Notes: generated by a model from the letters alone, not told the origin. Counted from the stretch's first letter, positions 528 to 61,614 are shown. The stretch: DNA of 64,000 nt from Lingula anatina (GCA_051362555.1 CM120640.1:1054001-1118000), one strand, 5' to 3'. Program-made: numbers and translations.

Positions 528-3500
528 CCGTGCAAGATGGAGGTTCGGAACTCCAACTCCCGTTATTCATACAAACTGCTGTTGAACTCCCTGCCAATAC
601 CAAGTCTCCATCACTACAAGTGTATGTTAACGTGCTGCCAAACACCAAAGAATCATACGTCACAACCACTGTGTCTGGTAACTTTGGTAACTGACAGGTA
701 ACAACTAAAGAGAATAAACAAAAAATAAAACATATTTAGCTCTGAAAAAGTTACCCCCCCCCCCAAAAAAAAAAAAAAAAAAATTATTAGATCCTACAAA
801 GGTCCATAAAATTTCAAGAAATTTGCTGGATTTAAACTTCAGTATGGGTATGATCATTCACTTCTCTTGGTCACTTTTGCCTAAAAGTTGCTCTTTTTAA
901 TAATATGCTCCAAATGGCTACTGCGGCATTGGAGTCACAATTGCAAACGTTTCAAAAATTTGTCAATTACTCGACCACATTCCTCCTTCGGCATCTACCC
1001 GAGCCACCTTCAGTTTACCAATTGTTTGAGGGTTATTCTTGAACAAATTATCCTTGACATACCCCCTATATACATTATTATAATCGAGTGCTGTTTTTTT
1101 AATGTCCTATTTTCCACGTGAAGGCGGGCGAAATATCTGTAGGCAGATCAGGAGCGTTCACAATGATGTTAAGCTTATTTAACTACAATATTGATGTTGT
1201 TTTATAATTTTACATAAATGTGCAGTACATAATCTTAACCCATTTTGAATAAAAAAATTAAAGACTAATATAACTTACTGGAACACGTATTTCCATTTCC
1301 AAAATAACCAATTTCACACTGGCACTTGTAGCTTCCAAAGGTGTTACTACAAACCACATGTTTGCCAGAACAGTTGTGTTGGCCATTGCTACATTCATCC
1401 ACATCTACAAAAAATATCAAAAACCATCACACGCTTGATTTTATTAGTTTTATCGAGGAATTTTCATTTTCCCCTTTCTTCTTTTACCATGACGCTATAT
1501 TCCACCTTGACCATTATTTTGTAATGGGTATGTTCCTCAAACTATGCATTTACCACTCAGTAAACACGATACTTGCTGCAACGAACAATAATCTTTGAAA
1601 TTTAATGGAGCGAACTTCATTGCATAAATAAATCTTGGCACATAAAATACGTACCTTCACAAATATAGCCGTCTCCATTATACCCAAAATCACATGTGCA
1701 GGTATATCCACCATTGGTATTGGTACAACTAGCTGAGGAGCTGCAGTTGTTGGTTGTTTGGCATTCATCAATATCATTACAGTTGTAGCCATCACCAGTG
1801 TAGCCAGAATTACAAAAGCAGGTAAAACCACCATTGGTATTGGTACAGCTAGCTAAGGCGCTGCAGTTGTTGGTTGTTTTGCATTCATCAATGTCACTAC
1901 ATGTGTAACCATCACCGGTGTAGCCAGAATTACAAGAGCAGGTATAGCCACCATTGGTATTGGTACAGCTAGCTAAGGAGCTGCATTTCTTGGTTGTTTT
2001 GCACTCATCAATATCATAACAGTTGTAACCATCACCAGTGTAGCCAGAATTACAAAAGCAGGTAAAACCACCATTGGTATTGGTACAGCTAGCTAAGGCG
2101 CTGCAGTTGTTGGTTGTTTTGCATTCATCAATATCATTACAGCCGTAGCCATCACCAGTGAAGCCAGAATTACAAGAGCAGGTATAGCCACTATTGGTAT
2201 TGGTACAGCTAGCTACGGAGCTGCAGTTGTTGGTTGTTTTGCATTCATCAATGTCATTACAGTCGTAGCCATCACCGGTGTAGCCAGAATTACAAGAGCA
2301 GGTATAGCCACCAATGGTATTGGTGCAGTTGGCCAAGGAGCTGCAGTTGTTGGTTGTTTTGCATTCATCAATATCATTACAGTCGTAGCCATCACCAGTG
2401 TAGCCAGAATAACAAGAGCAGGTATAGCCACCAATGGTATTGGTGCAGTTGGCCAAGGAGCTGCAGTTGTTGGTTGTTTTGCATTCATCAATATCATTAC
2501 AGTCGTAGCCATCACCGGTGTAGCCAGAATTACAAGAGCAGGTATAGCCACTATTGGTATTGGTACAGCTAGCTACGGAGCTGCAGTTGTTGGTTGTTTT
2601 GCACTCATCAATATCATTACAGTCGTAGCCATCACCGGTGTAGCCAGAATTACAAAAACAGGTATAGCCACCAATGGTATTGGTGCAGTTGGCCAAGTAG
2701 CTGCAGTTGTTGGTTGTTTTGCATTCATCCATGTCATTACAGTTGTAGCCATCACCAGTGTAGCCAGAATTACAAGAGCAGGTATAGCCACCATTGGTAT
2801 TGGTACAGCTAGCTGAGGAGCTGCAGTTGTTGGTTGTTTGGCATTCATCAATATCGCTACAGTTGTAGCCATCACCGGTGAAGCCAGAATTACAAGAGCA
2901 GGTATAGCCACCATTGGTATTGGTACAGCTAGCTGAGGAGCTGCAGTTGTTGGTTGTTTTACATTCGTCAATATCATTACAGTTATAGCCATCACCGGTG
3001 AAGCCAGAATTACAAGAGCAGGTATAGCCACTATTGGTATTGGTACAGCTAGCTGAGATGCTGCATTTGTTGGTTGTTTTGCATTCGTCAATATCATTAC
3101 AGTCGTAGCCATCACCAGTGTAGCCAGAATTACAAGAGCAGGTATAGCCACCAATGGTATTGATACAGATAGCTGAGGAGCTGCAGTTGTTGGTTGTTTT
3201 GCATTCATCAATGTCATTACAGTTGTAGCCATCACCGGTGTAGCCAGGATTACAAGAGCAGGTATAGCCACCAATGGTATTGGTGCAGTTGGCTAAGGAG
3301 CTGCAGTTGTTGGTTGTTTTGCATTCATTAATATCATTGCAGACGTAACCATCACCGGTATAGCCAGAATTGCAAGAGCAGGTAAAGCCACCATTGGTAT
3401 TGGTACAGATAGCTGAGGAGCTGCAGTTGTTGGTTGTTTTGCATTCATCAATATCATTACAGTTGTAGCCATCACCGGTGTAGCCAGAATTACAAGAGCA

Positions 3501-6500
3501 GCTAAAACTGCCTGGTAAATCTGTGCATTTTGCGTGTAAAGTGCAGTTGTGGGTGCCCAGGATGCATTCGTTCATGTCTGTAAAGATTATGGTTATTATT
3601 TGCGTGAACTCTTTAATTATTTTAAAATATACAAATTTAATATCAAAAGATGTGATGAAATAGACATGAAAATATTTTACGTGTTTGCATATTTTAAATG
3701 TATTTGTAGTATTTTAAAAAATCACTGTATCAAACTTTTTGCCTCCAGCACTGAACTCCTCCAGCACTGCTGAAATTGTTGTGCCAGAAACGAACAAACC
3801 ATTCAATTAAGAATTCGAAGATAATTTTGTATGAATGGCTATACATGTGACCGTGTCTAATTAGGGCCCAGTAAGTGGCCCATAACGGCCCCAAAGCCCC
3901 CCCCCCTCCCCCCGAAAAGCTGGGTGTGCTCGAGGGTGGTCGACTTACCCGAGCAACCTGCTGTAATATTCCACTTTCCATTTGAAAGACAAACTATGGA
4001 AAAACTACTGTCTCCGTTCATGTGGTACCCGTCTTCACAGACATAGTTAGAACTCATCATGTCTGAACTCATTAGTTTACTGTGTTCTGGGTGAACCTCC
4101 GGGCATCTGGGACCTAGTGAATATAAAACCATTATTTTGACTGGGACAGCTTTGAGACGTGTTTTTTCTTAGGTTGTACTATTTTTACTTTCTGTCTAAG
4201 CAATGAACTTACAGGGCCTTTGCTCTGGAATTTAAGTTTCGTTTACATTTACAAAAATACAATGTATCTTTGTATCTATAGAGCATGATAACTGACCAAG
4301 CAGTAGCACACAATTCACCTACATGTGTATATTTTTTTCTGATCGCTCTCGCGCGTACATATGCAAGGTAGTGAGATCAAAAGGAAACAAATAATCTCAT
4401 GTCCGTGCAATTGTTAAAATAAAAGATTTGCTTCCTACCAGACTGGCACATGTAATAGTTGATGTCCGCGGCAACACCGGTGACCCATCTGAAGTCTCTT
4501 GCCCTGTCAAGCCTGATGGCTTCGCGAGCATTTGCTCGTTGGGTTCCATGTGAGTCCCAGTTAAAATAGTCCAACTGCTTTCCTAAGAACACCAAAAAGA
4601 ACCATTATTGGCAAACGGCACCTGGAGATCTAAGGACAGATATAAGGTACATTGTATAAGAACACTACGTGATATTCCCTAATACAAATACGTGGAGTGA
4701 ATTATTATCTCATCTAGATTATTTTGACTGTACTGCATTTTTAAGATTTTCACAAGAATGCCCAAAATTGACATTAAGACAAAAACATCCTAAATAATGT
4801 TCTAGTTTTCTATATGCAATTTGTATCATTGCCATTTTAATATGGAAAGAAAAGCTTGCTTCTTTTATTGATGGTCCATTTTTGACACTTGTCAATGATG
4901 AAGGAAGTTTTTGCTTCTTGAAATTGCAGTTGGACGTGAGACTATTCAAAATGTATGAAAAATTATAAATAATCTGATTCTTAAATATTTTAAGACTTTG
5001 ATTTATGTGTTTTATGCTGACGTTACCAAACCCATTCCAATGCCTCTTCATAGTTAACATAAACATACCATTTTCCCAAACCCACGTATATGGTTCTGCT
5101 GTGTTCCAAACTGCGCCGATCCAGTAGTTTCCAGCATAACGCCGCTTGTCCCTCACGCTTTCTGCTTTAATATGGCTGACTATAACATTCTGTGTGGACT
5201 GGTTTTCGATATGGGCAAGCCTTGCTCCTTTGTTGTCACATAAGCTTTTTGCCTCTATCCAAGTGTATCCGTCTTCGCTTCTTGATCCAGGGTGAACCTC
5301 CAGACAAAAACATGACCCATTGTGAAAGACGCCGGATCCGCAGTCACTTACTCCAGAACAGCTTTGAACGTTGGCTGAAATATAGCACAGGTGTATTTGT
5401 TTGTAGAAACAATGTACACGTATTATGATGGAATGTCTACGACGCATTGTCACGTCCATTTCCGATATGACACAAGAGCCTAAAACCTTCAAACTTTTCA
5501 AATACATCTGCGAATAAAAATGCTTCGAGACATAACTTTTACATCAAACTGCACAATAAATCTAACAAATATAAAAACTTATCGTACAAACAATAAAATG
5601 AATAAGATAATGTATAGGAAACATGAGACCTCAACACGCTGTTTTGGTGTAACAATCAATTGACAGTGGCAATAATTTAACTGTCTTTGAGGTTCTTATG
5701 TTACACTTCAAACATTCATGCATTCTCTTTCCCAGACGACTATCTACAAACACAGTTTAAAACTCTTAAATATTGCCGATCGTAATTTGGTAGGCTGACA
5801 AAAGTAACGGCATATCACTTCCGACAATTTAATGTGATTACACCATAAATTGAAAATACATTTAAAAATGGTCAATAGGCTTTGGTTAATTTCAAAACTT
5901 TGAATGCTAATAATAATAATCTTTATTAGTTCTAGCACAATTTACAAAGGCTATGACCAAACAATTTCATAGGTAGGCCTACCATATATCAATACTTGGT
6001 GTGTATACTTAAGTGTACTAGTAAGTGCTGTTATAGGGCCTACATCCATTATCAGAGGTGCAAATTATACAACTTGGTACATTCTGTATTATGTTAATGT
6101 ATAGACAATAAACATCGTCGTGTTAAATCTACAGAAATTTTTTGAAACTAAAATCTCTAAAATTGTTGCCTCTATTGCAAAACAGATGTCTGATCACAAA
6201 CAAACGAACAAAAAAAAGCAGACCAATGTACTTACTGAAATATTTTCGCAAGCAAAAAGATATAATAAATTCATTGCAGTACTTACTAAATTCGCAAATA
6301 GCGTTGGACTTTTCCTCGTGCGTTTCGTTAGTTCTGTAGATGTGGGTTGTTGTTTTTGCTTCGTCGTTCCACTTATAATCAAAGTCTCTCCACAGCATGA
6401 CGCGATCTTCATTTCCGCCGTTGAAATTAGGCTCTCCAGGTCCCCACGATGCCCAGGAGAGGGGTTGTCCGTCTGAAGTAAAAATATCCCAGCAGGCATA

Positions 6501-9500
6501 GTTGCGTTGGATCAACGCTGAAAACAGGTTGACACGTTGAATTGCCGTTGATCAACCTAAATTCAACGTAAAATCAACGTTGATCCAGCCACTTCAAAAC
6601 ACCGTCATAATGTGACGTTGACTCAACGTTGTATTTTGGTCAATGACACAACCTTGCAGTTATGGATTGTAATTTAAAATATTAATTATTGAAAACGTGA
6701 TACTTTGTTTATCAATACTGTAACTAAATTTATCAAAATAATAACAAAAGGGTTCTAAAGTAAAAGTGACAGTTGTTTTGTGTCTTTAGTTTACTAGTGA
6801 GTTTTCTTAACTTGTTATTCAGAAATACATTCCAATAAACTGAATTCCTTGCAAGGTCAGCTAACACTAGGATGAATAAGTTGCTATAAATGTGATGGAG
6901 TTAACAGTTCTTGGTAACCTGTTATCAAGGAGTTATAACAGAAGGAGATTACACGCGTGGGGGCGGAGCCCGTATTACGGTCTCTCATTAGTCGGAATGA
7001 ATAGAACCCAGAGAACAATGGGTTCCTATCTCTGTTAGGCTTTCTGTTACTCTCGTTTAAATCTCGTTTGTCAGAATAGGTGCCTTCGTCTGTCGTTTGG
7101 AGAGGACACAAACAGAAACTCAGTCAAAAGTTTCTTAAAATGAGAGAATTACAGAGTGCAGAGGATATAACGTTGGATAAGGTTATCAAAAAACAGGTAA
7201 GTGCTTTTAAATGCATAACTACTCGAAATATGAAGATAAATTGCAACTTTTATGCCGTGGGGTCTCACTACATGTAAGTGTCCAGCTCCACGTCGATCTC
7301 GCGAGGTGGTGTGTGGAGAATAAATATTGCACGAAAAATATTTCCCACTCATAACAAGTGCTTACAAATAGTATCAGATGAAGAAATGTTTGGTCTTTAT
7401 ACAGTTGCAATTGTTTAGTTATTTGTGGCAAAAGCATAGAATAAAACTTAGGTGCACTTTCAGTAGCCGAATAACAAGCAGATGCATAAGCCGCCATCTT
7501 GTTTATGTTTCGAAAAAAATAACTCCAAAAGACATTTTCCTCCTACTTTTTGATACTTGTGTCACATGACAGTCATAAAATTTAACTAATTGATGTGTGT
7601 GCAATACATTTTCTTGAGCAGTATTGTTGGTTTTTTCGATTTTAAATGTGGTCTAGCTTGAATACGACAAGGGACAATTTTCACGAGTCCAGATCAAAAA
7701 GTGTTACGCTTGTTACGGCCAAAAGCCTGAACGTTTTTTGCACTTTTCAAATGCGTGATTATAAAAGATTTTGGTGTATTTAGATTCTTGAACATCTTGG
7801 TCGTGGCTTGGTATATATTGCATGGGTATTGCTCCAATATTTCTTGAAAAAAATAACCTGTTTTGTCCAGAATACCAATTTTTTACTTTAGTGTTATGGG
7901 TAAATGTACCATTTTTGCCTTTACCTTTTTCGTGTTTAAAACTAAGAAGACTTATCATGACAGTTGGTCATCATTTTTCTTCTCACCATGGAGGGTGGCT
8001 TTGGAGTGGTAACTTTGTTGTTAAAGTAAGGTGCTCAGTTATTTTGACTGGAAAGTTTTGCCTCCACTCAGCATTTTCCATCATGGCGGTCTAACGGGAA
8101 GTTTGACTTCACAGTGTCTTTGGTATAGTTATTTTAAACTTATTTAGTCTTCTTTTTACATATATATGTTTTAATTCATATTAAACCTTTGAAAAAAGAA
8201 CACACATGAATCCTGGTGCTTCTGAATTTAAAGTCTTAAGGTTTTAAGTTCACCTAGGCTCCACCAATTACTTTACCTGTTATCTCACTACACATCTCCC
8301 TTTGAGTCAAGGTGTGTAAGACACACCTTATTGTGTAAGACACCTCTATAATTAAGGGGTACTTGCTTCTCTACTTTAATTATACTTCACTACTTTGGCA
8401 TGTTAGGTGGCAAGCTTGGATGTTTCAGTTCATTTTAAGAAAGAAGCTTTGCCTTGGTGGTTACAAAAGAATAGAACTTTTTTAAGGTTTATTCATTACT
8501 TGAAAGTAAATATTTCATCTTGCTGTGTTGAAACAGAAATTCTCTCAAAATTGATAATGAATTTTACATGCATATCTTAACACTACTCAAGTTTTTTTTC
8601 TTCTATTATAGATATGGGAGAAGGCTGCATTGAATATACTAGTATGAATTATGGTCAGGCTGGAAAAAATTTAAAAATGTCAATGAAAAAAGGAGGTCAG
8701 CGTGTCAGGGGTAAGTTACTTTTGTAATAATGCCTAAGATGCATTAAACATTCACTAATAACAGTACCCTTTTAAATTTTTTTTCAAAATACGACAACCT
8801 TGGGCATTTTCCTTTTAGCAACCAGCCTCTCTGAAATCCCCTTTTTGTCCTGTCAGAAGAGTAGGAACCAGGGCGGATTTAAATAATTTCTTGTAATAAG
8901 TACAATTTCTTTCAATTTCTTGGGGTTATTAGCTTGTGATCATGAATCTTGATATTTTACATAAATTTAGTTGTAAATTGTTCATTTATGTGGTGAACAT
9001 TATTTCAGTCAAGTCATAACAAGACACATTAAACTTCACTGCGTAATTCCATAATGTCTACATGGATACTAGTAGTTCATAATGCTATTATTATGTTTTT
9101 TTCTAACCTACAGGTTTCTCTCTTTTCTGAGTGGCATGGCATTGGCAGGCAGAAGAAAAGGCCCTGAAGAAATTCTCACTTGAGTTGTCCTTTTTGGAGA
9201 AGAAACTGGATAAGACTGGCCAACAGAGATTGCATTAAATTAATAGTGCTCCTTCATGACATTTTAAAATATTTTCAGTCACCTAACTGACTCTATACAT
9301 TTCAAAAGTTGACATAAATTTTATGTTACTGTCACATGGAAAAAAATTCAAAACCTATATATAATTTGTTGAGTGCCATGGTATAAAAGTCTACTTGATT
9401 GCCAGTAAAATTTGGACTGTTTCAGTGAAATTTCTTTAAAGCAGTCACTTACTGGCCCAGTTAATTTTTTCAGCTGTAACATGTACTCCAGTTCATTTTA

Positions 9501-10847
9501 TAAATGTTCTTACTAAGTGTTGTCTTGATTTATAATAACCTTTTGAAAATCCCATGTTTTTTATCCTATTTGTAAGAAATAGCCACTTTATCTTCTAGGT
9601 TTTTTTTTTCATTCAGCCCATTAGATTCTCAGACCTTGCTGGCCTGTGAGTGGAATAGTATCTGGCACAGACTGGTATCAGCAAGTCAGATAAAAAAGAA
9701 TATAATTATTTCTATTTGCACGGTTGAAAAAAATTCCAACACAGACTGCATAAAACTGGAAAACTATAGCAACTTAATCATTCTTATGACTTCATTAATT
9801 ACTGCTTATGTTTAAAATTTTGTTTTTGTTCTTCTATTGATGTAATAAAATGGTTTTACTCACAGATGCTACTATCATGATGCTTGAGTATAGAGTTGAC
9901 TTAAAAGATATTTAAGTTAATATAGTAAATAATATTTTGAAATTCAAAATTCTCATCTTTATTTGTTTCACTTTAAAGAGCTCAGTTGATACTAAAATTT
10001 CTGATATATTTTGTACATAAATATATTTATGAATGAATAAAAATTATTCTTAATGTTTAGCACTGTGCACTTGTTTACTGACAAATAAGAAGTGTTAGTA
10101 CCGGGGTATGTGTCAAAATAATCCTGAAAATAAAAAGGGAGATTTCCAAGATAAAGAAACTTATAACGAGTATTTAGTAAACTGACATGTCGTGGCATTG
10201 CCTCAACCTTTGATTAAAATTTCACTTTAATGCATTATGATATTAAAATTATACCGAGTGAGAGAAAAAATACTTAAAGAAATTAAAAACCAGTCACAAA
10301 GCTTAGGCACTGTCTCAATGTATATGTTTATGGGACCAAAGGGCAGGGGGGTCCAAACGTTTATGTATTAATATTATGCCCTTTGGCAGTGAGGACAGAC
10401 GTTCACTCGAATGTCATTTTCACAAACCACAGTTGGGACGTTTTCTTTTGACTTATCCTTGGTGATTTTTCACTGTGTTGTGCAAAAGAAAAGCCATCTA
10501 TCACCGACTCAAAAAAACTCATGGCGACCATCCTCAGTCACCACCTTATAATCGCTTTCTATGATATCGTTCCCTCCCAGCACATCGTCCAAATAACTAC
10601 CTGTGAAAAAAATCGTCAGCATACAGCGCCGCTTTGACACTACTGATCTCGAATTCTAACGCGAAATAACGCATATAAAATCAATCTCCAAGCGGAGGAG
10701 AGCGACCCAGACGAAACCTTGAGACAGGAGGCCCCCCGTAGCTAGCTCCGCCCACCGTAACAGACATCGGAGAGGCTTGCGTGTAATTTCCTTCTGTTAT
10801 AACTCCTTGCTGTTATAGATAGACAGGTTGAGGTGACTGTGACTTTG

Positions 10848-10921
<74 letters not shown>

Positions 10922-13209
10922 CAAAGTATATATTAATCTGAACCTTGGAAATTTTAACTTAAACGCCATACATTAATACCCTACATATATTTAGCCATCA
11001 AACATGTCCTACTGATAAACACATCCAGGCTAATTTCCCGCTGGGTGGGGTTGATATAACATTGTTTTCTGACGTTGATACAACGTTGTTATCTGAGGTT
11101 GACACAACTTTCAAATCCAGCCTTTATCCAATGTCTTCTCAACGTTATGGTTCAACGTTGGTTCAACGTTAAAACAACATAATTTGCCCGCTGGGATGCT
11201 ACTGATGAATGGATGGATTCCTTTTGTATATGAACGTTTGATAATTTCTTAAATGTTTCATATTCTTCCCCGTTAAGTAGTGAAAAATGTCAAATTTAGA
11301 AATATGTAATCTTACCTACAGGTACTATGCAGCAGACACGACTTAACAGGCATTGAGACATTATCACTATGAGTAAAATCAGCAAATGATTTTTAATGTT
11401 CATTTATTTATAAATACCGGTAAGGTCACTTGATATTATTTTTCCTTACATATATTTATTTATTTATTAAAGTGTCACATATTCTTAAAACATAAAATAC
11501 AAAAAACAGTATAAAATAAACTACTAATTAAAAGAATACCCAGCCATATTTGGCTTATGAGACACAGTTTTAAACATTTTAAAAACTGTCTTAGCTAATA
11601 AAAACTGGTATTCGCAATTCATAATAAAAACAAATTTTTCTGTATCACTATAATTGCTAAAACATGGATTAAGATAGTGACATTGATCTAAAAGTTCTTG
11701 TCGTAAATCTGAATAAAAAGGACATATTAAAAGAAAGTGAATCTCATCTTCTGTATTTTTTCTATCGCAATAAAAACAAAGTCTTTCATTTAAAGGGGTT
11801 CGTATTAAACGGCCAGATTCTACATGTATTTAACTGGGCCACAGCGCAACTTAGCTAAAACGCTACGGTAAAGTCTCGGCATTGCACAGTGAAGATATGT
11901 CTCCGTTTTCAAATCTTTTTTGAAGAATCTATAATGCCTCAGTTTATTTCCATTGGGGTTTCCTTTGTCATTCCACAATTTACAAAACCATTTCTGTTCG
12001 TAAAATTGAAAAAGAGACCTTCTAATCTCTTTTTTAGCGTTTTTTAAATACATAAGACTCATTGCTTAACATGCTGTTCAGTTTATACTGAGTGAGAAGT
12101 TTAATGGTTTTCACACCCCAAGAGCGTTTCTCCTTTACTAACCAATTAAAAACTTTACTTAAAATGCGGCCGTTGTTTGCATTTTTAAGTCTACAATAGT
12201 ATCTGAACACTTCTATGTGTTGAACTGCTAGGCTAGGCATCCACCCCATATAATATGACGATGCTCTGCTAATGCAAACTAAGCATTGGGCTATTCAAAT
12301 CTTCCTTTCGGAAAATTAAGAATGACAATGATAATCTTAACTTTTTATCTCCAAATCATTTCAATTCCGCAATACTTTTATTTGCTTTCTTTAACAACAT
12401 GTACATGTACTTTTTAAAAGCATGGACTTATTTAACCTTTATTAATCTTTTAACTATGTTATGATTTCAATAATTATCACAATTAATTATTTCTTGGTCC
12501 TGGCCAATGCGACCACAAATTTCTTACCGAGGTTAAAACGTAGTTCTAAAATTTTATGCATTATGGAAACATGAAATAAAAATAAATTTTCCTTATAGTT
12601 ACAGCCGATGATATCTTACAAATGACACATTTTCTTGTTTATAACAAGGATAAAACAACACGCAGCTTAAACTGACATATTTCTTATAAAATCGTTTGAT
12701 GCTGTTACAAATATCCATTAAAAGAATGAAAACACCTACCGTCGTCCCACCGCCATCTTTTTGTAGCCGAAGCGCCAATCCAAACGTCGAAATTAAGTCC
12801 CTTTCCTTTTAAATAGCGTTCCCTGACGAAATCATCTGAATTCTTGTTATCTATGACTACCAAGGTTCCATTTCTAGACTTACAATCATTTCCAGCGTCC
12901 GTCCAAGACTTCCGTTCTTTAAAAAGCCGGAGACACTTGGAGTTAAAATAGACTGCATCCGGTCCCTGACAAAGCTGACCGCCTTGTAAAAACAAGGATA
13001 ATGGGTTTACATGTACATCTGCTGTCTTCAACACATCTAAGGTACAGGTGTATAAAAAATAAAAAGAGAAAATTACGAAACGCTTCATGACATCGCTTCA
13101 TTTTTAAGAATTTTGAACAAAACATGTTCTTACCTACAGGAACATTGCAAAGTATCACCAAAACAACGGCCAACAATACCATATGGTTCTGTATATTAGA
13201 GACAGCCAT
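528..13209 (-). CDS. Gene A: signal peptide - 2x C-type lectin domain - sushi - 16 cbEGF (one exon) - 1 EGF - sushi; 3' end (probable TM/tail) beyond left edge
   Basis: Exons (minus): 13134-13209 signal [25 protein letters not shown]; 12740-12982 and 6287-6472 CTLD1 ([29 protein letters not shown]); 5069-5374 and 4439-4582 CTLD2; 3949-4113 sushi; 1655-3577 EGF array; 1279-1404 EGF ([12 protein letters not shown]..); 528-704 sushi (..[15 protein letters not shown]). All internal exons are GT-AG, phase 1-1, and the same length as paralogous exons. Confidence 0.88.
1655..3577 (-). repeat. Coding tandem array of 16 calcium-binding EGF units (120-bp period) in one exon of gene A
   Basis: 1923 nt = 16x120+3. 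Units read [40 protein letters not shown], matching the cbEGF D-I-D-E-C and C-x-N-x4-Y/F-x-C patterns. Confidence 0.97.
6926..10809. mobile_element. P-superfamily-like DNA transposon (31-bp TIR, 7-bp TSD) nested in the previous element; no intact transposase seen
   Basis: TIR caaggagttataacagaagga(g/a)attacacgc at 6926-6956, inverted at 10779-10809 with 1 mismatch. Flanked by direct repeat ctgttat (6919-6925, 10810-10816). A CANRG start and 7-8 bp TSD are typical of P elements. Confidence 0.75.
10849..10920. repeat. (TA)n microsatellite
   Basis: Uninterrupted TA run of about 70 bp. Confidence 0.97.
11316..11403 (-). other. Orphan/alternative signal-peptide exon inside intron 2 of gene A
   Basis: [33 protein letters not shown]|gtaag, phase 1; resembles gene A exon 1 (..[15 protein letters not shown]|gtaag). 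Confidence 0.6.
11453..12250 (-). mobile_element. 5'-truncated, frameshifted LINE 3' fragment (L2/Crack/Daphne-like C-terminal region)
   Basis: Broken frames [42 protein letters not shown], then [20 protein letters not shown] (C-terminal CCHC-like region), ending in a (TAAA)n tail. Confidence 0.75.
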
Positions 13210-21756: not shown

Positions 21757-21793
<37 letters not shown>

Positions 21794-28007: not shown

Positions 28008-28046
<39 letters not shown>

Positions 28047-37700: not shown

Positions 37701-39224
37701 CTCTCTGAGAGGAAAGTCTCAATGCTTCAAATCCACTGTATCATTATCAATGGTCAAACTACTTCCGTCATTAGTTTCTCTGTTCTCCCTCTTCTTGCCA
37801 TATCCTTGATAACTGTTCAGTTCCATAAAGGTCTTGAGTATACTTCAAATATCAATTTACTGAATTTTCCATTGCAAACGAAATATGCTTTCGAATTCGA
37901 TAAATGAAAAATACTTTCAATGCAAAATTGATTTCATTAAATAATCCTTCTTTACCGTATTCGCAAACAGCGTTAGATTTAATTCCATGGACTTCTCTTC
38001 CGTCAGCGTCCCATCTGTGGAGGTACGTGGTATCTGCTCTCTCGTCGTTCCACTCGTAGTTAAAGTCCTTCCACAAGGCCACCCTATCCTCCTGCCCGCC
38101 GGCGTCATTCGGCTCGTGGACGGCCCAGGACGTCCACCCAATTTCTCTATTAGCTGTGCAAGTATCAACCAAATTATATGTCAGTGAGCAGCTTAGGCTT
38201 TTTATACAGCTCATCACTAGGGTTGATAGACATGAAAAAACTTTGTTGCGAATCAATATTTACTAACCGGTAGTCCAAAAATGAAAACAATGGGCAACAG
38301 ACTATTAACCTAAATAAAAACTACATTTCCCTCTTGAAAACGCATTTTACCTGCCCGACGCTTAATATATACGTCCCATCCCATTACTTCGGGCAGATGG
38401 ATAACATCGAATTCATAAATAACCACTTTTGGCATACACAATAATGCTTTATGGAGGGAAAAGCAAGCGGACAAAATGACAAAAATCTTCAGCATTTGAC
38501 TTTAGAAAAGATGGGAGTGTCATGTTGAAAAACAAACAAACAAAAAAAACATTAAACGGAAAGACATGCCCTAGAGGCTTTCCCTAAGCCAAATGACGAA
38601 AATAACAGATCTTAATGATAAAACAGAACTTACTGTCCGCCCAGAACCAGCGCTTTCTTGATAAGGCGCCGATCCAGACGTCACAATGCGCCCCCTTTAA
38701 CAGCATCTGTTTCATAAAGTCGTCTGTGTCCTTGTCGTCAATGGCGGCCAAGTGCCCTCCTTGGTTTTCACAGTAGAACCTCGCTTTTGACCAAGATTGA
38801 TCTTCGTGAATTACCTCGAAACATCTGTGATTGTAGTACACGGAATTTTTCCTCTCACAGGTTTCTTGTCCTAAACAAAGTATTTATGTTGACATTTACT
38901 TACATTTTTCCTTGCCTTTTTTTTCATTCTTTTCCTCGGAATATATTTGGTCAAAACATTATTTTATAAAGCATGAATTTTCACCACTCGTGTGCTCTGT
39001 ACCTGTATTCATAAAGCAGACTTTTGGTAAATCGTTAAATGTCATGATTCATATATTATACGTCTTCACTATCCAAATTCAAATATTACTAAACAGTTTA
39101 CAAGAAAAATAAAGAAATTTGAGAAATTTCTCTTGAAAGAACCAAAAAGAAATTATAAATGTATACCTGTAGTCCATAGGACAAACAATACATGGAAAGC
39201 GATACACCGAACGTGACAGTGCAT
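34796..39224 (-). CDS. Gene D: signal - 2x CTLD - mucin stalk - TM - SIYTTV/NPMY/YDIV tail (complete)
   Basis: Exons: 39167-39224 MHCHVRCIAFHVLFVLWTT; 38634-38870; 37956-38153 (HEPNDAGGQEDRVALW..WNDE); 37283-37582; 36943-37086; 36307-36720 mucin; 36083-36154; 35759-35846 TM; 35333-35460; 34796-34953. Confidence 0.88.
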
Positions 39225-40430: not shown

Positions 40431-40513
40431 AATGAATAAATAAATCTGACTGTTCAGAAAGTAAAGATGCCAGTTAATATAATAATCAATCACTTTAAGT
40501 TGCTATAGCTTAC

Positions 40514-49500: not shown

Positions 49501-51301
49501 ACCGCAAAATGCCATGCAAGACTTTGGAAGAGTTCTCAATTTTCATACTCAACAAGAAGAGTAACCCAAGTCAAAGGAAAGAAAGAGCGAGTTGAGGGGG
49601 GAGTTGAGGGGGGAGTTGAGGTAATAAATGTAAACTATCATAGAAAGTAAAAAGATACCATTTTCCCAGGTCCACTTGGCGCCTTGCTCTCTATCCCATG
49701 CTGCACCAATCCAGTAATTACCCGCTAAATTGGTATCCTCCCTAATGCGTTGTCGCAAAGCATTCAGCGTCGACCAGTTTTCTATGTGTGCCAGTCTTTG
49801 GTTTTTACGCTTACAGTCTTCCTCAGCATCCGCCCGTGTTGTACCTGCTCGTTTTGCGTCTTTGTAGCTGTTCGCAGTGCCGTAGTGGCCCCTCAGGTAA
49901 AAGCAGGTTGCGTTGTGGTAGACACACCTTGAAACACCATGTCCTTTAACTGCGCATTCGCCATTTTGGGAGCAGGACCTGTTTGCTTGAATGTGATAAA
50001 AGTATTCACAAGTACACACTTATTTAGATTTGATTTTTGCAGCATATTTAGACATCACATAAAAACTTTAAAAAATAAAGCCCAGTGTTATTTGATCTAA
50101 AATTCGGGTTTAATTAATTATAGTAGTAAACAAGCGGCTAATTTCAGATCATCTATATAACTGATGATTATAATTTGAAAAATTCTTACTGTCTTCGCAT
50201 ATAAATTTGGAAATGACTAAGTGATTTTCTTTAGTGTCGCCGTGTTGATCATTCCATAAATAGTCGGCTCTCTGCCACAGCATCACAAAGTCTTCTGCAC
50301 TGTTATCATCGTTTGGCTCTCCCGCCCCCCAGGCAAACCACGTTAATTCTGAACCGTCTGAAAATGAGGGAAAATATTTTAAAACAAGTCAATCTAAAGC
50401 GGGGGAGAAGGGTGGTCGTATAGAGGCCCATAAAAATTCTAGATATGTTTTGGCTTCGTTTTGGGAAGAGAGACCCCAGGTTTTAGATGTAGTTTGTTCG
50501 CAATTCTTGATCAAATATTTCAATAAAATATCTCCAACCGTCAGTTGTTATTTGCTATCTCTTGTTTTCTTTCGGTTAAATGAATTTAGGGAATAATCAA
50601 TTATTTTTCCTTCACAACACGAGTTAGAAAAATAATGAAATATTAGAAAAGTACATAGTCAGATACACATGCACACTATTCATATATTGAATAAATAAAT
50701 AAATAAATAAATATATCCAACCTCTGAACTTATCACCGTCTTTCCAAAACCATCTCTTCCGAGTTTTTGCCCCTAACCATACATCTGCCGTTACTTTACT
50801 TCCATTGAGATATTTCCGTATGAAAGATTCCACCGTGTTATTGGAGATTGCCACCAAGGAACCATTTTGTTTCTGACACTCCACCTTTGCTTTTGTCCAC
50901 GTTGTGTTGACTTTGTGGAGTTGTAAACAGAAACCGTTGGGAAGTGTCACCATAAAGTCATCACAGATTAGTTCTGGTAGAATAAAAAAACATGCCGCAA
51001 TAAAAATCTAAGCAAGTTGAAAGGGAAAAACAGCATATTTAGAACTGAGATTATTAGAAGCTAATAAAGTGAGAAATTAGTATGCAATGTAACGTACATA
51101 ATGTATATATACAGTTCAAAATTAATTAAGGTAAATTAATTAAAATTAAATAAGTTAATGCACGTAAAACACTAAACATAACTCATCAAAATTATGTCCC
51201 TTTTGTACATACTTATTTAAAAAGATAAATAGCATCAAACTACCTGTCTTTCCGAGATGCAGAAATATGAAAAACATTATAAATGCGGCATAAGAATCCA
51301 T
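46532..51301 (-). CDS. Gene F: signal - 2x CTLD - Ser/Thr stalk - TM - NPLY/SIYDTI tail (complete)
   Basis: Exons: 51244-51301 MDSYAAFIMFFIFLHLGKT; 50737-50973; 50190-50357 (WGAGEPNDDNSAEDFVMLW..WNDQ); 49659-49985; 48832-48975; 48341-48571; 47933-48010; 47724-47811 TM (WGLAAAIGIPVLFAAIVLAVFSIIY); 47228-47349; 46532-46803. Confidence 0.87.
47515..47573. repeat. (ATTAT)n pentanucleotide microsatellite
   Basis: Directly visible. Confidence 0.93.
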
Positions 51302-51498: not shown

Positions 51499-51529
51499 AG
51501 CCAATCAAGAAAGGTGAATGGGACTTTCA
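51499..51529. promoter_or_regulatory. CCAAT box and kappaB-like site (GGGACTTTCA) ~200 bp upstream of gene F ATG
   Basis: agccaatc at 51499-51506; gggactttca at 51520-51529, one mismatch from GGGACTTTCC. Motif match only. Confidence 0.3.
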
Positions 51530-53611: not shown

Positions 53612-56600
53612 ATGCAGAATCCAATTGTTGTGAACATAGTGTCAGTTGTGGTATTAAACATTTTCATCAGATCTATCGATGGAGGTAAGAGGTTATTTCA
53701 AATGAGATTAATGAGATTTCTTGGAGTACCCATCAGCGGCAAAGAGAAAAATGTCATTCCTTTATCAGTGCGTTATTATGTAAGGCGCCTTTCATTTAAA
53801 ATTCAACTTGCTATTATCGATTATAGGGCCTACATGTATGTACGTTACGTAACTGATTAATTACCACCTTGTATGATTAAGTATAAAAGGTGTGACAACT
53901 AGCTATAAATATGATGTGAAATTACAATCAGGTTTTCTTTTGACCGCCTGAGCACACCGACGCTCTAAGACTTTGGGACCATTCCCAGACCTTATCGTAG
54001 TAACTGTGGATCGAACTATCTCCAAGGGGATTCTCCCTAAATTGCATTCACATTAAGCGGCTTAGATGTCTGTCACGCCTAGGGGGTAATTAATTATCGT
54101 TTAGCAGCTTCAGTAGGCGTGCCAAACATCTGAGCCGCTTAAACTGAAAGCAATTTAGCAAGAAACCCCTCGGAGATGGATAGATCCTGTTAGATCGATC
54201 TAGGTATAGGAACCCAGTCTCTGATAGGGATTAAATGGTGAGGGTGGATGGATGGGGGCAAGGCGATGGCTTAAATAACGATTTAACGAATCGTCCCTTC
54301 TAACAATCACAAGGAAAAGAAGTTAATCACAGTTTAATAATTAAGCTGATATACGGGTAGAACCGTTTATTTGTTTATTTAATTTTTATTTATTCATTTA
54401 TTTATTCATTCATTTATTTATTTATACAGCAGGACAGTTTTGTCCATATGGGGGTGTGCAAGTGCGCAGCACGTGTGTTTTAGTTGTACCGAACGCCGAG
54501 AAACTAACATGGCGGGACGCAAGGCAAAACTGCGAGAAACGAAACGCCAGCTTGCTGATTGTAAAAGACATAGATTTCCTGCGGGAGCTCAGCAGGACTG
54601 CAGCCCTAAGCCAAAGACAATACTGGGTGGGAGCGAGAAAACTAAAGAGTTGGTACTGGTTGAACGGTAAGCAGAAAATGTTAGAAATTAATAAAATATT
54701 TAAACGTCTCTAATTCCGAACATTGTATAAAATTTGGATTGTATTGAATTTTTTTAACAAGGAGGTCCCCCCTTAGGTGTTTTCAAAAATTAAAATTAAT
54801 TGACATTTTATCTTTTAAAAGAACCGAAGAGGTTTGAAAAGAATTATATTTTAGGACAAAATATTCAATCGTGCATTTTTACCGTATTATTTTTATCTTT
54901 AATTAACTACTTATAAATGTATAAATTATAAAACTCAGGTTAAATCATGAATTGTATACTATTACATGCTATTTCTGTTCCCCAGACACAAAACCGATAG
55001 GGTGGTACAAGTGGGCCCCCGGGGAGCCCAATGACTTGAAAGGCGGTGAAAATCGTTTGAACATGATGTCCAAATTTTTCTACGACTGGAATGACGAGCA
55101 GGACACCAGAATACAACGAGACAATGACGAGGACAGATACAGGATGCCAGCAGGGGCCATTTGTCAGTTTGGTAGGCATCGACAAGTAAAGTAATAATAA
55201 TCATATTATATGCACTGAGCACTATACACGTTGGGAATAAGTACACGTGTGTTGCAGTGACACGTATACAGATTAGGTATTGTATTTTCAAATTATAATT
55301 GTTCAAGCATATATCATAGATCGTTCCAAGATTTCCCAATTTTGTTAAAATTGCTTCTGTGCGTCACTTGCAAGATTTTTTCAATGGATGAGCTATTCAT
55401 AACATAAGTTCTGAAAATATGCAGTTTTATTCTAAATAGACGCATAGTGCACTGTGGGCGAGACCTTTCAATTTAAGGCAAATTGGAGGGTTTCATCAAA
55501 TAGTTACATGTATCACGTGCAAATCTGTGCCAAGATATCTCGATCGTTTTGAGGTAATGTGTTAAACTCTTACAGTTGGTCCATGCAACAGCCGGATAAA
55601 ACACGAAAATGACACTTACCCAAGAACAACCTTCCAAAACAAGACCTGTTTCCTGTTGATAAAAAGCAACAATGACTGGAACACATCTCAGAACATGTGC
55701 CAGAACACATTTGGTCACCCTGGGAATCTGGCTAGAATTGATGACTTGGAGACCCACGAATTCCTGGTGAAATTCATTAATGAGTCAGGGTACAGTGCTA
55801 ATTACTGGCTGGGTGGATGGTGGAACCGGAACAAGAAGAGCATCTTCTGGTGGCTGAATGGTAAATTTTGTCAATATAGGCTGAATGTAGTGGCACATAT
55901 AAATTCTGTTTATATTTCTTTATCAAATTGCAAAAGAAAAATAATAAATTTAATTCTAGATATATACATCACAAGGAATTGTTAATAGCACATATATATT
56001 TTAGCTGTTTTCACACTTCACTTGATCCCATTCCTTATTTCAAACACCACATACAGTGCCAAAAGATAGCAGGTGTCCCTTGGCAACAGTTTTGACAACC
56101 TTTCTCCCAGGGGTACTTTTAAGAAACAAATCACATAATTATCAGGAAATAAGTGAATTATACTTCATTTCTAATTATATGGATTCTTATTTTATTGAAT
56201 TCAAAACTGAATTAATGATATTGTTATTTAGGTGCATCTGTAGAAGATGATCTGTGGGCGACAAACCAGTCGTCTGCTACTGGGGAATGTGCACAGATAG
56301 TGAAGACCTCAAACTATTCCCTGTGGGCTCAGAACTGTGACCATTCTGGCAAACATTTTCTTTGTGAATACGGTATGCATATCAGTATCAAGATCAACTT
56401 TATTGTGTGACGGTTCTGAAGAAACGATACCGGGGATAGGGGGTTTGATGTATAATAAAAAACTTCTTCTAGAATGACTTGAAAACTTCTAGAATGACTT
56501 GAAATTTTTTTTACTGGGCAAACAGTTGATATACTCAAGCAAAAGATGGGCGAACGTTACATTTACAAACAGGGGAAAATAGAAAAATAGTCCATGAAAT

Positions 56601-59600
56601 TTTATTGTTTTCCTTCAGCTTTACCGTGCCCAGACCCCGCGATGGAACACAGCATCAAAGTATTCGAGTCAACGACCGACTTAAGAAGAGCGCACTTTGT
56701 GTGTGCGCCCGGGTACAGGTTTAATTCCAGCACCTCATTCACCATAGAATGTTTTCCAAACGGCAGGTGGAACAGCTCAGTGGGATGTCAGAGTATGTAT
56801 GCCTTGAAACAACGTATATAACTTAATTATTCCCCAGACTCTACCGATCCCTACTGGATGTTTAACGAGACGAAACGAGTACTTTTAAATTTGAAACTGT
56901 GTTCAATATTAATTGATGTCATTTGAACGTTTCCTCAGAAAAACAACACAGCCCCTGCAACTAAGTAGCCCCTTAGACTTAATTTACTACCCCTACAACC
57001 TGATCAGTATAACTATTGTATCTTAAATATTCCAGACATTAATGAATGCAGTGAACACCCCAGCCCATGTAGTCCCAATGCAGCATGTGTCGACACTGAG
57101 GGAAGTTATGTCTGCATTTGTAATTCTGGCTACACCGGTGATGGCTACAACTGTCATGATATTGATGAATGCCAAGCAACCAACAACTGCAGCTCCTCAG
57201 CTAGTTGTACCAATACCAATGGTGACTATACCTGCTCTTGTAATTCTGGCTACACCGGTGATGGCAATAACTGTAATGATATTGATGAATGCAAAACAAC
57301 CAATAACTGCAGCTCCTCAGCTAGTTGTACCAATACCAACGGTGGCTATACCTGCTCTTGTAATTCTGGGTACACCGGTGACGGCTACAAATGTAATGAT
57401 ATTGATGAATGCCAAACAACAAACAACTGCAGCTCCTCAGCTAGCTGTACCAATACCAACGATGGGTATACCTGCTCTTGTAATTCTGGCTTCACCGGTG
57501 ATGGCTACAACTGTAATGATATTGATGAATGCCAAACAACCAACAACTGCAGCTCCTCAGCTAGTTGTACCAATACCAACGGTGGCTATACCTGCTCTTG
57601 TAATTCTGGCTACACCGGTGATGGCTACAACTGTAATGATATTGATGAATGCCAAACAACCAACAACTGCAGCTCTGCAGCTAGCTGTACCAATACCAAC
57701 GGTGGCTATACCTGCTCTTGTAATTCTGGCTACACCGGTGATGGCTACAACTGTAATGATATTGATGAATGCAAAACAACCAACACCTGCAGCTCCTCAG
57801 CTAGTTGTACCAATACCAACGGTGGGTATACCTGCTCTTGTAAGTCTGGCTACACCGGTGATGGCTATAACTGTAATGATATTGATGAATGCCAAACAAC
57901 CAACAACTGCAGCTCCGCAGCTAGCTGTACCAATACCAATGGTGACTATACCTGCACCTGTCAACGTGGTTTCATAGGAGATGGGCACATATGTAGCAGT
58001 AGGTCGTTTGTTTCAAAAGCTAGGGCTTAATTCTTATTTATTTATTTATTTATTTATTATTTTGTTTGTTGGTTGGTTTTTATAATGATGTTCTTAAATG
58101 ATATTTGCCTTCTTTGTCACGTATTTTTATTTAAAAGTTAAAAAATCGCATTGCTTCTGTTTAAAAAGTGATTTATACAACATACACTCGTACAATTCAT
58201 TTGCCACTCTATGAAAACATTAATTTTCAATTTCAATTTCAATTTATTTCTGTACTGGTACATAGATTGTCATGACCTTGTACAATTTGATATACTAATG
58301 ATGATACAATACAGTTAGTGCATTACCATCTTTATATAATGGACATACGTATCAGTAAAATTACTCATAGAATATTCTATCTAAGCAATGCGATAAACCT
58401 TGGTGTGATTTTAAATTTACCATAAACATACTATAAACATGTTACACAAAAAGAATATGTTTAAACTTAAAACCAAGGTTACATAGCTGTTTAAGGCCAG
58501 TTTGATGACATGGATAATTACGACTAATGACAATTACATAAGACAGATAAGTAAATGAGTGACACAGATATAAATATTGTGCCATGTTCAGTCCCACTGC
58601 CGAGTCACTTCTCACAACAGTGGGACCATACACTGACATTTTAAGGGATATGCTATTAATATATAATATCAAAATACACTTTAGATCCTCAGTTTAGAGT
58701 ATAGATTTACATGTAGTTTTTTGGTAATAAAGGAGATTTCTAGGGTCTCGGGAAAGTAACCTGAAAGTTCACATTTATTTATCTTATATGAATCGTATAT
58801 TTTCTTTATTTCCCAGTAAACTCCACAAGCACCAGGACAGATGAGAGAACTACGATATCATTGACTGCCGGTATGGACGCTCCAGCTTATTTTACTCAAA
58901 TACAGATATGTGATTGTGACCGCATTCACAACAGCGGACTAATTAGTCCGAGGATCAAATATGGCGACCCCCCCCTTAAAAGCTTGCCGCCTTATCCCCT
59001 AATAGACACTGAATAGATTTACCGGAATTACGAGACAAGCATTCAAGTGGACCAGACATATTTGATCCGCGGACTAGTTAGTCCGCTGTTTTGAATGCGG
59101 CCTGTGATTGAACATGTTCAGGCATTAAAGTATCAAGAAAAGCAAGCACAAAGTGTTAATTATTACGTACAAATATCAATGAGTCGTGCGTAGTAACCTG
59201 GTATAAATTGCTAGGCTGTCATAAATCTCATCAAATGTGTGTTTATTTCAGTCGAGGTAAATGGAACCACTTCGGTAATAAACGAAGACGCATTTGCTTC
59301 CGTCAGAACGCAAGATGTATCTAAGGGTAGGTTTTCTCCGTGGAGAACGTTTGGAATGTATAAAGGTCACTTGGTTGGAGCTTAACCTCAACGGAGTGTG
59401 ATTAGATCGACGAATTAACAGATTGAAGTACGCATTAATTTAAATTCAATAAAATCATGTTACCTAAGGGTTATCTGATCATTTTTATCATTGTAGCAAT
59501 TGATCATGATCTCGAGATTCTAGTAATATTTTTTTTAGGTACTGCGTCTACATTTGGTTTCAGTTCGGCAGCTGTTGGTGACATTTGGAGTCCCTGGGGT

Positions 59601-61614
59601 TCTGCTGGTCATTGTTCTCTCTCTGGCCTGGGTCATATACAGGAAACACAGGTAACTACAGTGATCCCGGCAATAAAAATGATGCACGCGCTTTCCCAGT
59701 AAATAACATCTGAAGGAGACTTTCAGAAATTAAATGGGTTTTCTGCAAAAGTAAATATCGCTTATCAATTAATTCATTTCTGAGGGGCTAGTTTATAATA
59801 TTTCTATTTAAATCTAAATCTTAAATCTATTTAGATCTAAAGAGGCGTATTAAAAAACATTATATCTCTGTCATGATTGCTACTTTTTTGTAATACCTCC
59901 TCGCTATACATATGCGTTTTATTACATGTAATTCCACAGCAAAAGGAAACCTGGGGATGGCTGCCACACAGAGAGTATCTACACCACTGTAGAGAACCCC
60001 ACGTATAACGTGACACCTGACAGCGAACAGGAGACCACGTCACCTGTCAACACAGTAATGAAAGCTTTTCAAGGTAATGTACACCTTAGGGCGTATTCCC
60101 AGACATTTAGATAGATCTATCCCCGTGGGGAGTCTCACTAGATTACTGTCAGATAATCCGGCTTAAATGTCCGTCCCGCCTACTACAAGCTGTAAGGGGG
60201 TAATTAACTTTCGTGCCCGCTCGGCTGACAGTTATTTAGCGTGAACCCCCAGGGAGTTAGGTCGATCTAGTTTGGATCGATCTAATCTCTGGGAATGGGG
60301 TCTTAGACAGACCAGAACTGATTAATGGCTAACAGGCGACCGATTTGATTTTCTCTTGATCAGATGTATGAAACACTCACAGTCCGAAAAAACTAGGAGA
60401 TGGTTGGGATGTAGTCTTGTAGAGCAGTGTTGAGAGGGGGAAAACAAGGGACGAACTACAGGACAAGTTATTATTATAACATGTACATGGTTTATTAATC
60501 CGCGCCAGTTTGTTTTAGTGTCTTAAATTTGTCCCTGGGCCCAAACTACCTAAACACGGCCAGGGAATGTGTAACTGTTTGCCTGGTACTGGTTTCAACG
60601 CGTTTTGAATCACAGCAGACTTAATATTTCGGCACCAAAGTAGACACCAATTTTCGGTCTTCAATTATTTTGTGAGACCTACTTTGTACAAAAAAGGTGG
60701 CTGTAACCATTGCCAAGAAGTCGACAAGCCATGTGTGGCGGAGGCACTGTGTACTGGAGCTGGTCCACGTGCACCTGTGGACATGTTTCCGGGACGTGCT
60801 ACCTCATATCACCAGGCCCCCGGTATTTGACAGGCACATACACTATCTGTGGTTTACTATTAAACGATACAGATATCGCAGTGATAATATGACTGCCAAC
60901 ACATTGAGATCGAACAAACGGGCCTGTGCGTGTACGGCTACTTCGAAAAAGAAGCAAATGTTTTGAAAACATGCAAAAACATATAATATCAAGGTTACCA
61001 ACTCTGCAAAACTCGTTGCAAGTAAACAGGATTATCAAGCTATTTTCAGTATGATATCCATTTAAAATAAAGCGAAATCGTACATGTATTAAGGAAAATA
61101 TATAAGAGTCAGTAGACAAAAGGTTGCAGAACTTATGCTAATAAAACTTTAGGTATGATATACCATAAACAAGCGGCGTGTTTGATATTCGAAATTTGGC
61201 CGATGACGGCCGCATTTATTGAATGTCCCTCTGATAAAAGAAGGGGAGTAGTTTAATGTAACATTGAATAATGTTGAGTAAGGATATTTACGTAATGTTC
61301 GCGCCCTAAAAATCTACAGTCAGTATATAATTTCGAAACAAATAGTGCACACATTTCAATTTGCGGGGTTGCAAAGAGACGCCGATTTTTACTTTCACAT
61401 CAAAAGTGAGGCCAGAATGTAATGAAAGGCATTTGCGATTCATAACAAACACAATATTAGTGCACCAGGGGCTTTTTTTAACCTTTTTTTAAATTGTTTT
61501 CCATTAGGCTCCCGTCCCTTTCTAGAAGACTCTATGCCGTCACCGACAGTCAGCCAGTTCCAGAATACGACCGCTGGGTTGTCCATAGAGACAGTAGCCC
61601 CCGGGGTGCCTTAA
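53612..61614 (+). CDS. Gene G: signal - 2x CTLD - sushi - 8 cbEGF - linker - TM - SIYTTV/NPTY tail (complete)
   Basis: Exons: 53612-53684; 54430-54666 (NAGNAG acceptor); 54986-55171 (WAPGEPNDLKGGENRL..WNDE); 55576-55860; 56232-56372; 56619-56792 sushi; 57036-57998 EGF; 58817-58870; 59252-59326; 59564-59651 TM; 59940-60073 (ESIYTTVENPTY); 61508-61614 (GSRPF.. like GKRPF/GRRPF of D/F). Confidence 0.86.
53974..54220. mobile_element. Diverged relative of the 33543/60089 MITE family in intron 1 of gene G
   Basis: Shares attcccaga end, gcggcttagatgtctgtc, gggggtaattaa core and gatcgatcta motifs. Confidence 0.55.
57036..57998 (+). repeat. Single-exon array of 8 cbEGF units (gene G)
   Basis: 963 nt = 8x120+3; first unit INECSEHPSPC.. 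is divergent, internal units match genes A/B/E. Confidence 0.96.
58918..59102. mobile_element. MITE with ~46-bp TIRs, 3-bp TSD (Harbinger-like)
   Basis: tgt|gaccgcattcacaacagcggactaattagtccgaggatcaaatatg .. catatttgatccgcggactagttagtccgctgttttgaatgcggcc|tgt. Confidence 0.8.
60089..60302. mobile_element. PIF/Harbinger-like MITE (copy 2), TTA TSD, 15 nt after a gene G donor
   Basis: tta|gggcgtattcccaga..tctgggaatggggtc|tta; interior matches 33543-33766. Confidence 0.8.

What the first reader, a model, noticed from the sequence alone, without database searches (positions are those of the whole stretch)
528..61614. Seven-gene cluster of modular dual-CTLD receptors with variable stalks and tyrosine-coded tails: candidate diversified innate recognition system
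Seen: seven paralogs with the same exon scaffold (signal, 4 lectin exons, variable stalk; an 88-91-nt TM exon and NPxY exon in B, C, D, F and G) that differ independently in lectin sequence, stalk type and length, membrane anchoring and tail tyrosines. Established: CTLD-sushi-EGF-mucin-TM is the layout of vertebrate group-14 CTLDs (CD93, CD248, CLEC14A, thrombomodulin), which have a single CTLD; NPxY plus YxxL tails characterise CED-1/Draper engulfment receptors. Inference: a lineage-specific, combinatorially diversified family of phagocytic, immune or self-recognition receptors. I do not recognise it as a named family.
Basis: partly seen in the sequence, partly recalled or inferred. Interest (0 to 1): 0.85.

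Follow-up and report, generated by a model that had tools for sequence, protein, structure and literature searches.

The report
Brachiopod mix-and-match lectin receptor cluster
Seven intact neighbouring genes in a lamp-shell (Lingula) genome encode related proteins with two lectin domains, five of them with a membrane anchor and an internalisation-type tail; they likely capture mannose-type sugars for uptake and have likely traded stalk repeats and tails with each other, but an immune role is untested.

Summary
The cluster is real: seven paralogs (A-G) with open frames, GT-AG introns and one exon scaffold; B, C, D, F and G have an 88-91-nt TM exon and an NPxY exon. The only close relatives found are fragmentary, automatically named Lingula anatina models. 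A, B and E differ at dS 0.23-1.0, so they are not assembly duplicates. Modules have separate histories. G's internal EGF repeats match those of A/B/E at 86% of four-fold sites, against 12-29% in lectin and sushi exons. B joins an A-type ectodomain and TM to a D-type tail. Variation sits in a post-WND insert and one CTLD2 patch. RNA reads show traces at B, C and D and little or nothing at E, F and G. Best reading: a lineage-specific, module-swapping family of likely endocytic mannose-type lectin receptors. Immune diversification is plausible but not shown.

The parts
528..13209 (-). Gene A: signal, 2 CTLD, sushi, 16 cbEGF (one exon 1655-3577), sushi; continues beyond the window's left edge
   Evidence: 87% identical over 271 aa to Lingula model P0001
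16884..24548 (-). Gene B: 2 CTLD, sushi, 7 cbEGF, sushi, linker, TM (17610-17700), NPxY exon, tail; likely chimera of A-type ectodomain/TM and D-type tail
25826..33079 (-). Gene C: 2 CTLD, Thr-rich mucin, linker, TM (26769-26856), NPLY exon, tail
34796..39224 (-). Gene D: 2 CTLD, mucin, linker, TM (35759-35846), SIYTTV-NPMY exon, YDIV tail
   Evidence: public model P0165 has the same junctions from CTLD2 to the end, 13 differences in 390 aa
40514..45783 (-). Gene E: 2 CTLD, sushi, 7 cbEGF; 3' end unresolved (soluble, or a non-homologous hydrophobic exon candidate starting at 39971)
   Evidence: public model P0163 ends after the EGF exon
46532..51301 (-). Gene F: 2 CTLD, short mucin, linker, TM (47724-47811), NPLY exon, tail with SIYDTI
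   Evidence: relatives P0003 (head) and P0168 (tail, 119 of 129 identical)
53612..61614 (+). Gene G (head-to-head with F): 2 CTLD, sushi, 8 cbEGF, two short Ser/Thr exons, TM (59564-59651), SIYTTV-NPTY exon, tail
57036..57998 (+). EGF exon of G; internal units 90-93% identical on average to those of A, B, E, first unit only 63-67%
16884..17296 (-). NPxY and tail exons of B, closest to those of D (34796-35460)
   Evidence: tail exon 78% nt and 67% aa; score 248 against 36-97 for the other 9 pairs
49659..49985 (-). First CTLD2 exon of F, with a patch of concentrated divergence from P0003 (about residues 186-217)
   Evidence: 20 of 35 differences in one 32-aa window; 0 of 5000 shuffles reach it

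Best explanation
This is a tandem family of seven intact two-CTLD genes, likely Lingula-specific, whose membrane members are predicted to bind mannose/GlcNAc/fucose-type sugars through CTLD1 and likely internalise the cargo through NPxY adaptors. Shown: gene structure, invariant EPN-E-WND, purifying selection, and discordant similarity of modules. Inferred: CTLD1 holds Ca2+ and sugar at the conserved site although the inner cysteine pair is lost; a variable insert after WND and the non-sugar-type CTLD2 tune which glycan or protein is taken; mucin or EGF stalks set the reach; NPxY recruits PTB adaptors and SIYTTV/YDxV motifs may recruit SH2 proteins. New combinations likely arise by duplication, conversion among EGF repeats and exchange of exons, which the phase-1 introns around all ectodomain exons would allow. 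The most likely setting is clearance or innate uptake in a rare cell type (inferred from low read depth and from known lectin families).
For: Open frames and canonical introns in 7 of 7. EPN, E and WND invariant in 7 of 7; EPN selects Man/Glc/GlcNAc/Fuc (PMC9630629, passages). Model of the D-type head (P0002): mean pLDDT 86.7, CTLD fold, target-normalised TM-score about 0.85 to CD23 and mannose receptor CRD4. NPxY is the only invariant part of its exon in 5 of 5. dN/dS 0.06-0.49 for A/B/E. Four-fold-site identity G vs A/B/E: 1760 of 2048 in internal EGF units (pairs not independent) against 20 of 89 in lectin+sushi exons; A/B/E among themselves 67-76%. B TM scores 90 against P0154 (others 20-28), while P0154's tail matches no window tail beyond shuffles. 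Mean identity in CTLD1: 0.58 up to WND, 0.27 in the insert.
Against: No binding, uptake or cell-type data. RNA depth is very low: below 1 in exon-bearing bins of B, C and D, and near nothing for E, F and G; no exon junction among the joints shown. Loss of the inner cysteine pair could impair the site. The tail-swap argument leans on an automatic public model (P0154). The EGF unit could be a repeat shared by many unrelated Lingula genes, which I could not test without the genome.
Confidence: 0.55

Rival explanations
1. A polymorphic, pathogen-matched or self/non-self recognition locus under balancing selection, like the single-pass receptor clusters of Biomphalaria.
For: F differs from its closest public model in one concentrated CTLD2 patch (20 of 35 differences), while D, E and F's tail match public models at 92-99%. 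E has 7 EGF units against 6 in P0163. G's CTLD2 first exon is 80% identical to P0025 while its other lectin exons are 42-51%. ITIM-like SIYTTV/SIYDTI occurs in 3 of 5 tails.
Against: Sugar site invariant; no segment with pN/pS above 1; no ITAM. F versus P0003 may be paralogs, not alleles, and the 32-aa window was chosen after seeing the alignment. An EGF count difference can be assembly collapse.
Confidence: 0.22
2. Non-immune receptors: cell or matrix adhesion, glycoprotein scavenging, gamete surface or mantle/shell-matrix roles, with NPxY used for trafficking.
For: Long cbEGF and mucin stalks suit adhesion. EGF, sushi and C-type lectin domains occur among Lingula shell proteins (PMC13425148, passages). 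In a nemertean many C-lectins are expressed in nervous tissue or gut (PMC9835746, passages).
Against: Six accessions of the public relatives were not found in the one supplementary file held for the shell proteome (weak, since it may use other ids). Rapid paralog turnover and module exchange fit recognition genes better (inference).
Confidence: 0.2
3. Mostly decaying copies or assembly duplicates.
For: Little or no RNA at E, F and G; a weak donor in B; no clear 3' end for E.
Against: No stop or frameshift in 7 of 7; dS 0.23-1.0 with dN/dS below 0.5; introns mostly unalignable between paralogs; matching public models.
Confidence: 0.03

Closest known systems
Vertebrate group XIV CTLD proteins (CD93, CD248, CLEC14A, thrombomodulin)
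   Same: Type I membrane layout with CTLD, sushi, EGF repeats and short tail (PMC9167495, passages).
   Different: Two CTLDs, 10-12 coding exons, EPN/WND site, and either EGF/sushi or mucin stalks; group XIV has one CTLD, EGF plus mucin, and no or one intron, and is described as vertebrate. Convergent architecture is the likely reading.
Mannose receptor family (MRC1, Endo180, DEC-205, PLA2R)
   Same: Tandem CTLDs; top fold and sequence matches; endocytic tyrosine-type tail (recalled).
   Different: Only two CTLDs; no cysteine-rich or fibronectin II domain; EGF, sushi or mucin stalk. The public names 'macrophage mannose receptor 1-like' are automatic and sit on truncated models.
CED-1 / Draper / MEGF10
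   Same: Single-pass, EGF-rich ectodomain in B and G, NPxY in the tail.
   Different: No EMI/NIM domain, no YxxL or ITAM (definition from PMC8092387, passages); lectin heads.
Clusters of single-pass receptors in Biomphalaria (PTC1/GRC, PTC2, LG5R)
   Same: Tandem single-pass receptor genes with variable binding domains and signs of copy and sequence exchange in a lophotrochozoan (PMC13712769, passages).
   Different: Different domains; those loci are tied to parasite resistance by mapping, this one has no phenotype.
Lingula anatina public models XP_023930341, XP_013385180, XP_013405672, XP_013405649, XP_013405611/604, XP_013405589, XP_013397319, XP_013413931
   Same: Same family; several lie on one 120-kb scaffold.
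   Different: Most are fragments (head only, or stalk and tail only) with unrelated automatic names; none shows the full 2CTLD-sushi-EGF-TM-NPxY chain.

Membership tests
C-type lectin-like domain superfamily | CTLD fold with WIGL-type core and outer cysteine pair | tested here: met
   Pfam Lectin_C above cut-off; model and fold search
Ca2+-dependent mannose-type lectins | EPN, downstream E and WND in the domain | tested here: met
   CTLD1 7 of 7; absent in CTLD2 of all seven
Ca2+-dependent mannose-type lectins | Inner long-loop cysteine pair | tested here: not met
   Absent in CTLD1 of 7 of 7 and in CTLD2 of A, B, D, E, F; C keeps at most one of the two; G keeps both. 84 of 262 pattern matches in 153 fetched proteins also lack both; two of these proteins carry prokaryote names
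Ca2+-dependent mannose-type lectins | Measured sugar binding | not testable with these tools
   needs a glycan array
Group XIV CTLD | Single CTLD | tested here: not met
   two CTLDs in 7 of 7
Group XIV CTLD | Intronless or single-intron gene | tested here: not met
   10-12 coding exons in the complete genes; definition
Group XIV CTLD | Sushi, EGF repeats, then mucin region before the TM | tested here: inconclusive
   sushi+EGF in A, B, E, G; long mucin only in C, D, F; G has 43 Ser/Thr-rich residues after the EGFs
CED-1/Draper/MEGF10 | N-terminal EMI/NIM domain | tested here: not met
   N-terminal exons are Lectin_C; no such Pfam hit in exons scanned
CED-1/Draper/MEGF10 | NPxY in tail | tested here: met
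   5 of 5 tails
CED-1/Draper/MEGF10 | YxxL or ITAM in tail | tested here: not met
   0 of 5 tails
Mannose receptor family | Cys-rich and fibronectin II domains plus 8-10 CTLDs (recalled definition) | tested here: not met
   two CTLDs directly after the signal exon
Diversified immune receptor cluster | Positive or balancing selection on the binding surface | tested here: inconclusive
   paralog ratios all below 1; one concentrated patch in F versus P0003; no population data
Diversified immune receptor cluster | Expression in immune cells or after challenge | tested here: inconclusive
   trace reads in runs of unknown tissue

The most novel reading that the evidence does not exclude
A brachiopod recognition locus that builds new receptors by recombining three cassettes (lectin head, stalk, signalling tail), with allele-level hypervariability in CTLD2 and stalk-length polymorphism, acting in pathogen matching or allorecognition.
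Probability: 0.2. Interest if true: 0.75.

Novelty: new variant of a known kind. Interest (0 to 1): 0.45.

Why it matters
Brachiopod immunity is known almost only from gene lists, and the public models of these genes are fragments with misleading names. The cluster gives a compact, testable case of receptor modules evolving separately: repeat conversion between very distant paralogs and a tail exchange. It also gives an animal CTLD that keeps the whole mannose-type site without the inner disulfide. If the CTLD2 patch and the EGF count prove allelic, this would be a candidate polymorphic recognition locus in a phylum for which my literature searches found none. Expanded lectin receptor clusters are common in invertebrates, so the kind of system is not new.

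Tried and rejected
No whole genome is held, so copy number, A's 3' end and genome-wide spread of the EGF unit were not tested. No RNA holder was listed; the nine runs came by species label only. A single-sequence fold failed (pLDDT 34.6) and was replaced by an alignment-based fold. Protein-level mosaic test among A, B, E and P0001: only 7 informative sites, inconclusive. Whole-exon transfer of the EGF exon with its introns was rejected: flanking introns of G score at shuffle level and the first EGF unit is divergent. A tail search found only two Lingula models, so no tail on an unrelated ectodomain was seen; weak evidence. The Lingula immune-gene survey (PMID 29278680) is not held and may mention these genes. 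Nine literature searches listed no paper describing this cluster; subscription papers are not covered. The protein atlas did not answer. Three look-ups of earlier findings returned nothing. Nine stray ORFs and the E candidate exon had no Pfam hit above cut-off.

Full report
Observation. Six-frame translation and self-alignment showed seven sets of related exons. I fixed splice sites by hand and script and assembled models A-G. All introns are GT-AG, no model has an internal stop, and all ectodomain introns are phase 1; the intron after the TM exon is phase 2. A-F lie on the minus strand, G on the plus strand, head to head with F. A leaves the window after its second sushi exon. B, C, D, F and G have TM exons of 91, 88, 88, 88 and 88 nt, then an NPxY exon and a last exon. 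E has no homologous TM exon; a T-rich hydrophobic stretch from 39971 is a candidate, not shown to be an exon. Pfam confirms Lectin_C, Sushi and EGF_CA in the exons scanned.

Origin and relatives. Searches with exon alignments returned Lingula anatina models as the only close relatives: 3 of 5 hits, 6 of 6 and 2 of 2. In the scan of 1.84 billion representatives, comparison of the heads with the fetched proteins put Lingula models on top; two short unnamed fragments also share the CTLD1 signature. D matches P0165 at 377 of 390 residues with the same junctions. E matches P0163 apart from one substitution and one EGF unit (7 against 6). F's tail matches P0168 at 119 of 129. These public models support the junctions but are themselves automatic. 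P0101 is a more distant member (2 CTLD, mucin, TM, no NPxY) on another scaffold, so the family exceeds seven.

Lectin domains. CTLD1 keeps EPN, the following Glu and WND in 7 of 7, but has no cysteine at either inner position. EPN selects mannose, glucose, GlcNAc and fucose (PMC9630629, passages). An alignment-based model of the D-type head is confident (mean pLDDT 86.7) and matches CD23, mannose receptor and Endo180 domains. Loss of the pair is not unique: 84 of 262 crude pattern matches in fetched proteins lack both cysteines, and two such proteins have prokaryote names. After WND there is an insert of about 10-24 residues with mean identity 0.27, against 0.58 before it. CTLD2 lacks EPN/WND everywhere and keeps both inner cysteines only in G.

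Selection. Among A, B and E, dS is 0.23-1.0 and dN/dS 0.06-0.49 per exon; in loop segments pN/pS is at most 0.67. This excludes assembly duplicates and gives no sign of positive selection between paralogs. More distant pairs are saturated. One signal points the other way: F and P0003 differ at 35 mature positions, 20 of them in one 32-residue window of CTLD2, reached by 0 of 5000 shuffles. The window size was chosen after seeing the alignment, and allele versus paralog cannot be told.

Modules have separate histories. G's lectin exons are 37-54% identical to those of A/B/E at nucleotide level and its sushi exon 53-57%, yet its internal EGF units are 90-93% identical on average, up to 97.5%. 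At four-fold sites the figures are 1760 of 2048 for internal EGF units (non-independent pairs) and 20 of 89 for lectin plus sushi exons; A, B and E agree among themselves at 67-76% there. G's first EGF unit (63-67%) and flanking introns (shuffle level) do not share this, which fits conversion among repeats rather than transfer of the whole exon. B's TM matches P0154 (score 90, others 20-28), but P0154's tail is unrelated to all five window tails, while B's tail matches D's (score 248, other pairs 36-97). B is therefore likely a chimera. G's first CTLD2 exon is 80% identical to P0025, its other lectin exons 42-51%.

Tails. NPxY is the only invariant part of its exon. No tail has YxxL or an ITAM; D and G have SIYTTV just before NPxY, F has SIYDTI, B and D end in YD(T/I)V. 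CED-1 and Draper are defined by EMI/NIM domains and NPxY plus YxxL or ITAM (PMC8092387, passages); group XIV by one CTLD and no or one intron (PMC9167495, passages). Both membership tests fail, though uptake through NPxY could work alike.

Expression. No RNA holder was listed; nine runs came by species label. Seven were laid, 6-26% of each read, on 20450-40449 and 41310-57100. In X4, six consecutive bins over D had depth 0.11-0.86, all with first mate on +, as expected for a minus-strand RNA in a stranded library. X1 had 0.03-0.31 over B and C, same orientation. E had isolated traces; F and G had little or nothing beyond repeats. Bins are 527-667 nt and cannot separate exon from intron; none of the joints shown was an exon junction (10 and 2 rows hidden). 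This fits a rare cell type or an uninduced state, but also near-silence.

Literature. Seen as passages: PMC10140915 (about 100 C-type lectins in brachiopods), PMC4595640 (frequent EGF shuffling in Lingula), PMC13425148 (shell proteins; one supplement searched), PMC9835746, PMC9471012, PMC13712769 (single-pass receptor clusters in a snail). PMID 29278680, the Lingula immune survey, was seen only as a citation and could bear on novelty. Nine searches listed no description of this cluster.

Verdict. The sugar site is conserved, selection is purifying, the Draper-type tail is absent and function is untested. New variant of a known kind; interest 0.45.

Noticed in passing
window 28071-29147 (-): Reverse-transcriptase fragment (Pfam RVT_1) inside an intron of gene C, next to an A34 run at 28012-28045.
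   Followed up: partly
window 6473-12739: The 6.3-kb intron of gene A holds element-like ORF fragments at 11527-12294 (-) and a (TA)36 run; no Pfam hit above cut-off.
   Followed up: partly
window 27136-27422, 54008-54187, 58920-59100, 33561-33761 and 60106-60297: Palindromic or repeated elements, MITE-like by appearance; 33540-33770 and 53975-54220 collect many partial RNA reads from elsewhere.
   Followed up: no
window 39787-40079 and 40119-40445: A 79%-identical local duplication just 3' of E's EGF exon; it holds both candidate terminal exons of E.
   Followed up: partly
window 40514 and 38870: E's last donor and D's first lectin acceptor are both phase 1 and 1.6 kb apart, so an in-frame E-D read-through receptor is possible; no read evidence.
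   Followed up: no
P0154 and P0160: A second tail type in the family, without NPxY, sharing a short Ser-rich motif; likely the kind of tail that A carries beyond the window.
   Followed up: partly
window 22561-22941 (-): B's CTLD2 has WLDA in place of the WIGA core motif of its closest paralogs.
   Followed up: no
window 52042-52524 (-): 161-codon open frame between F and G with a proline-rich start and a hydrophobic stretch; no Pfam hit.
   Followed up: partly
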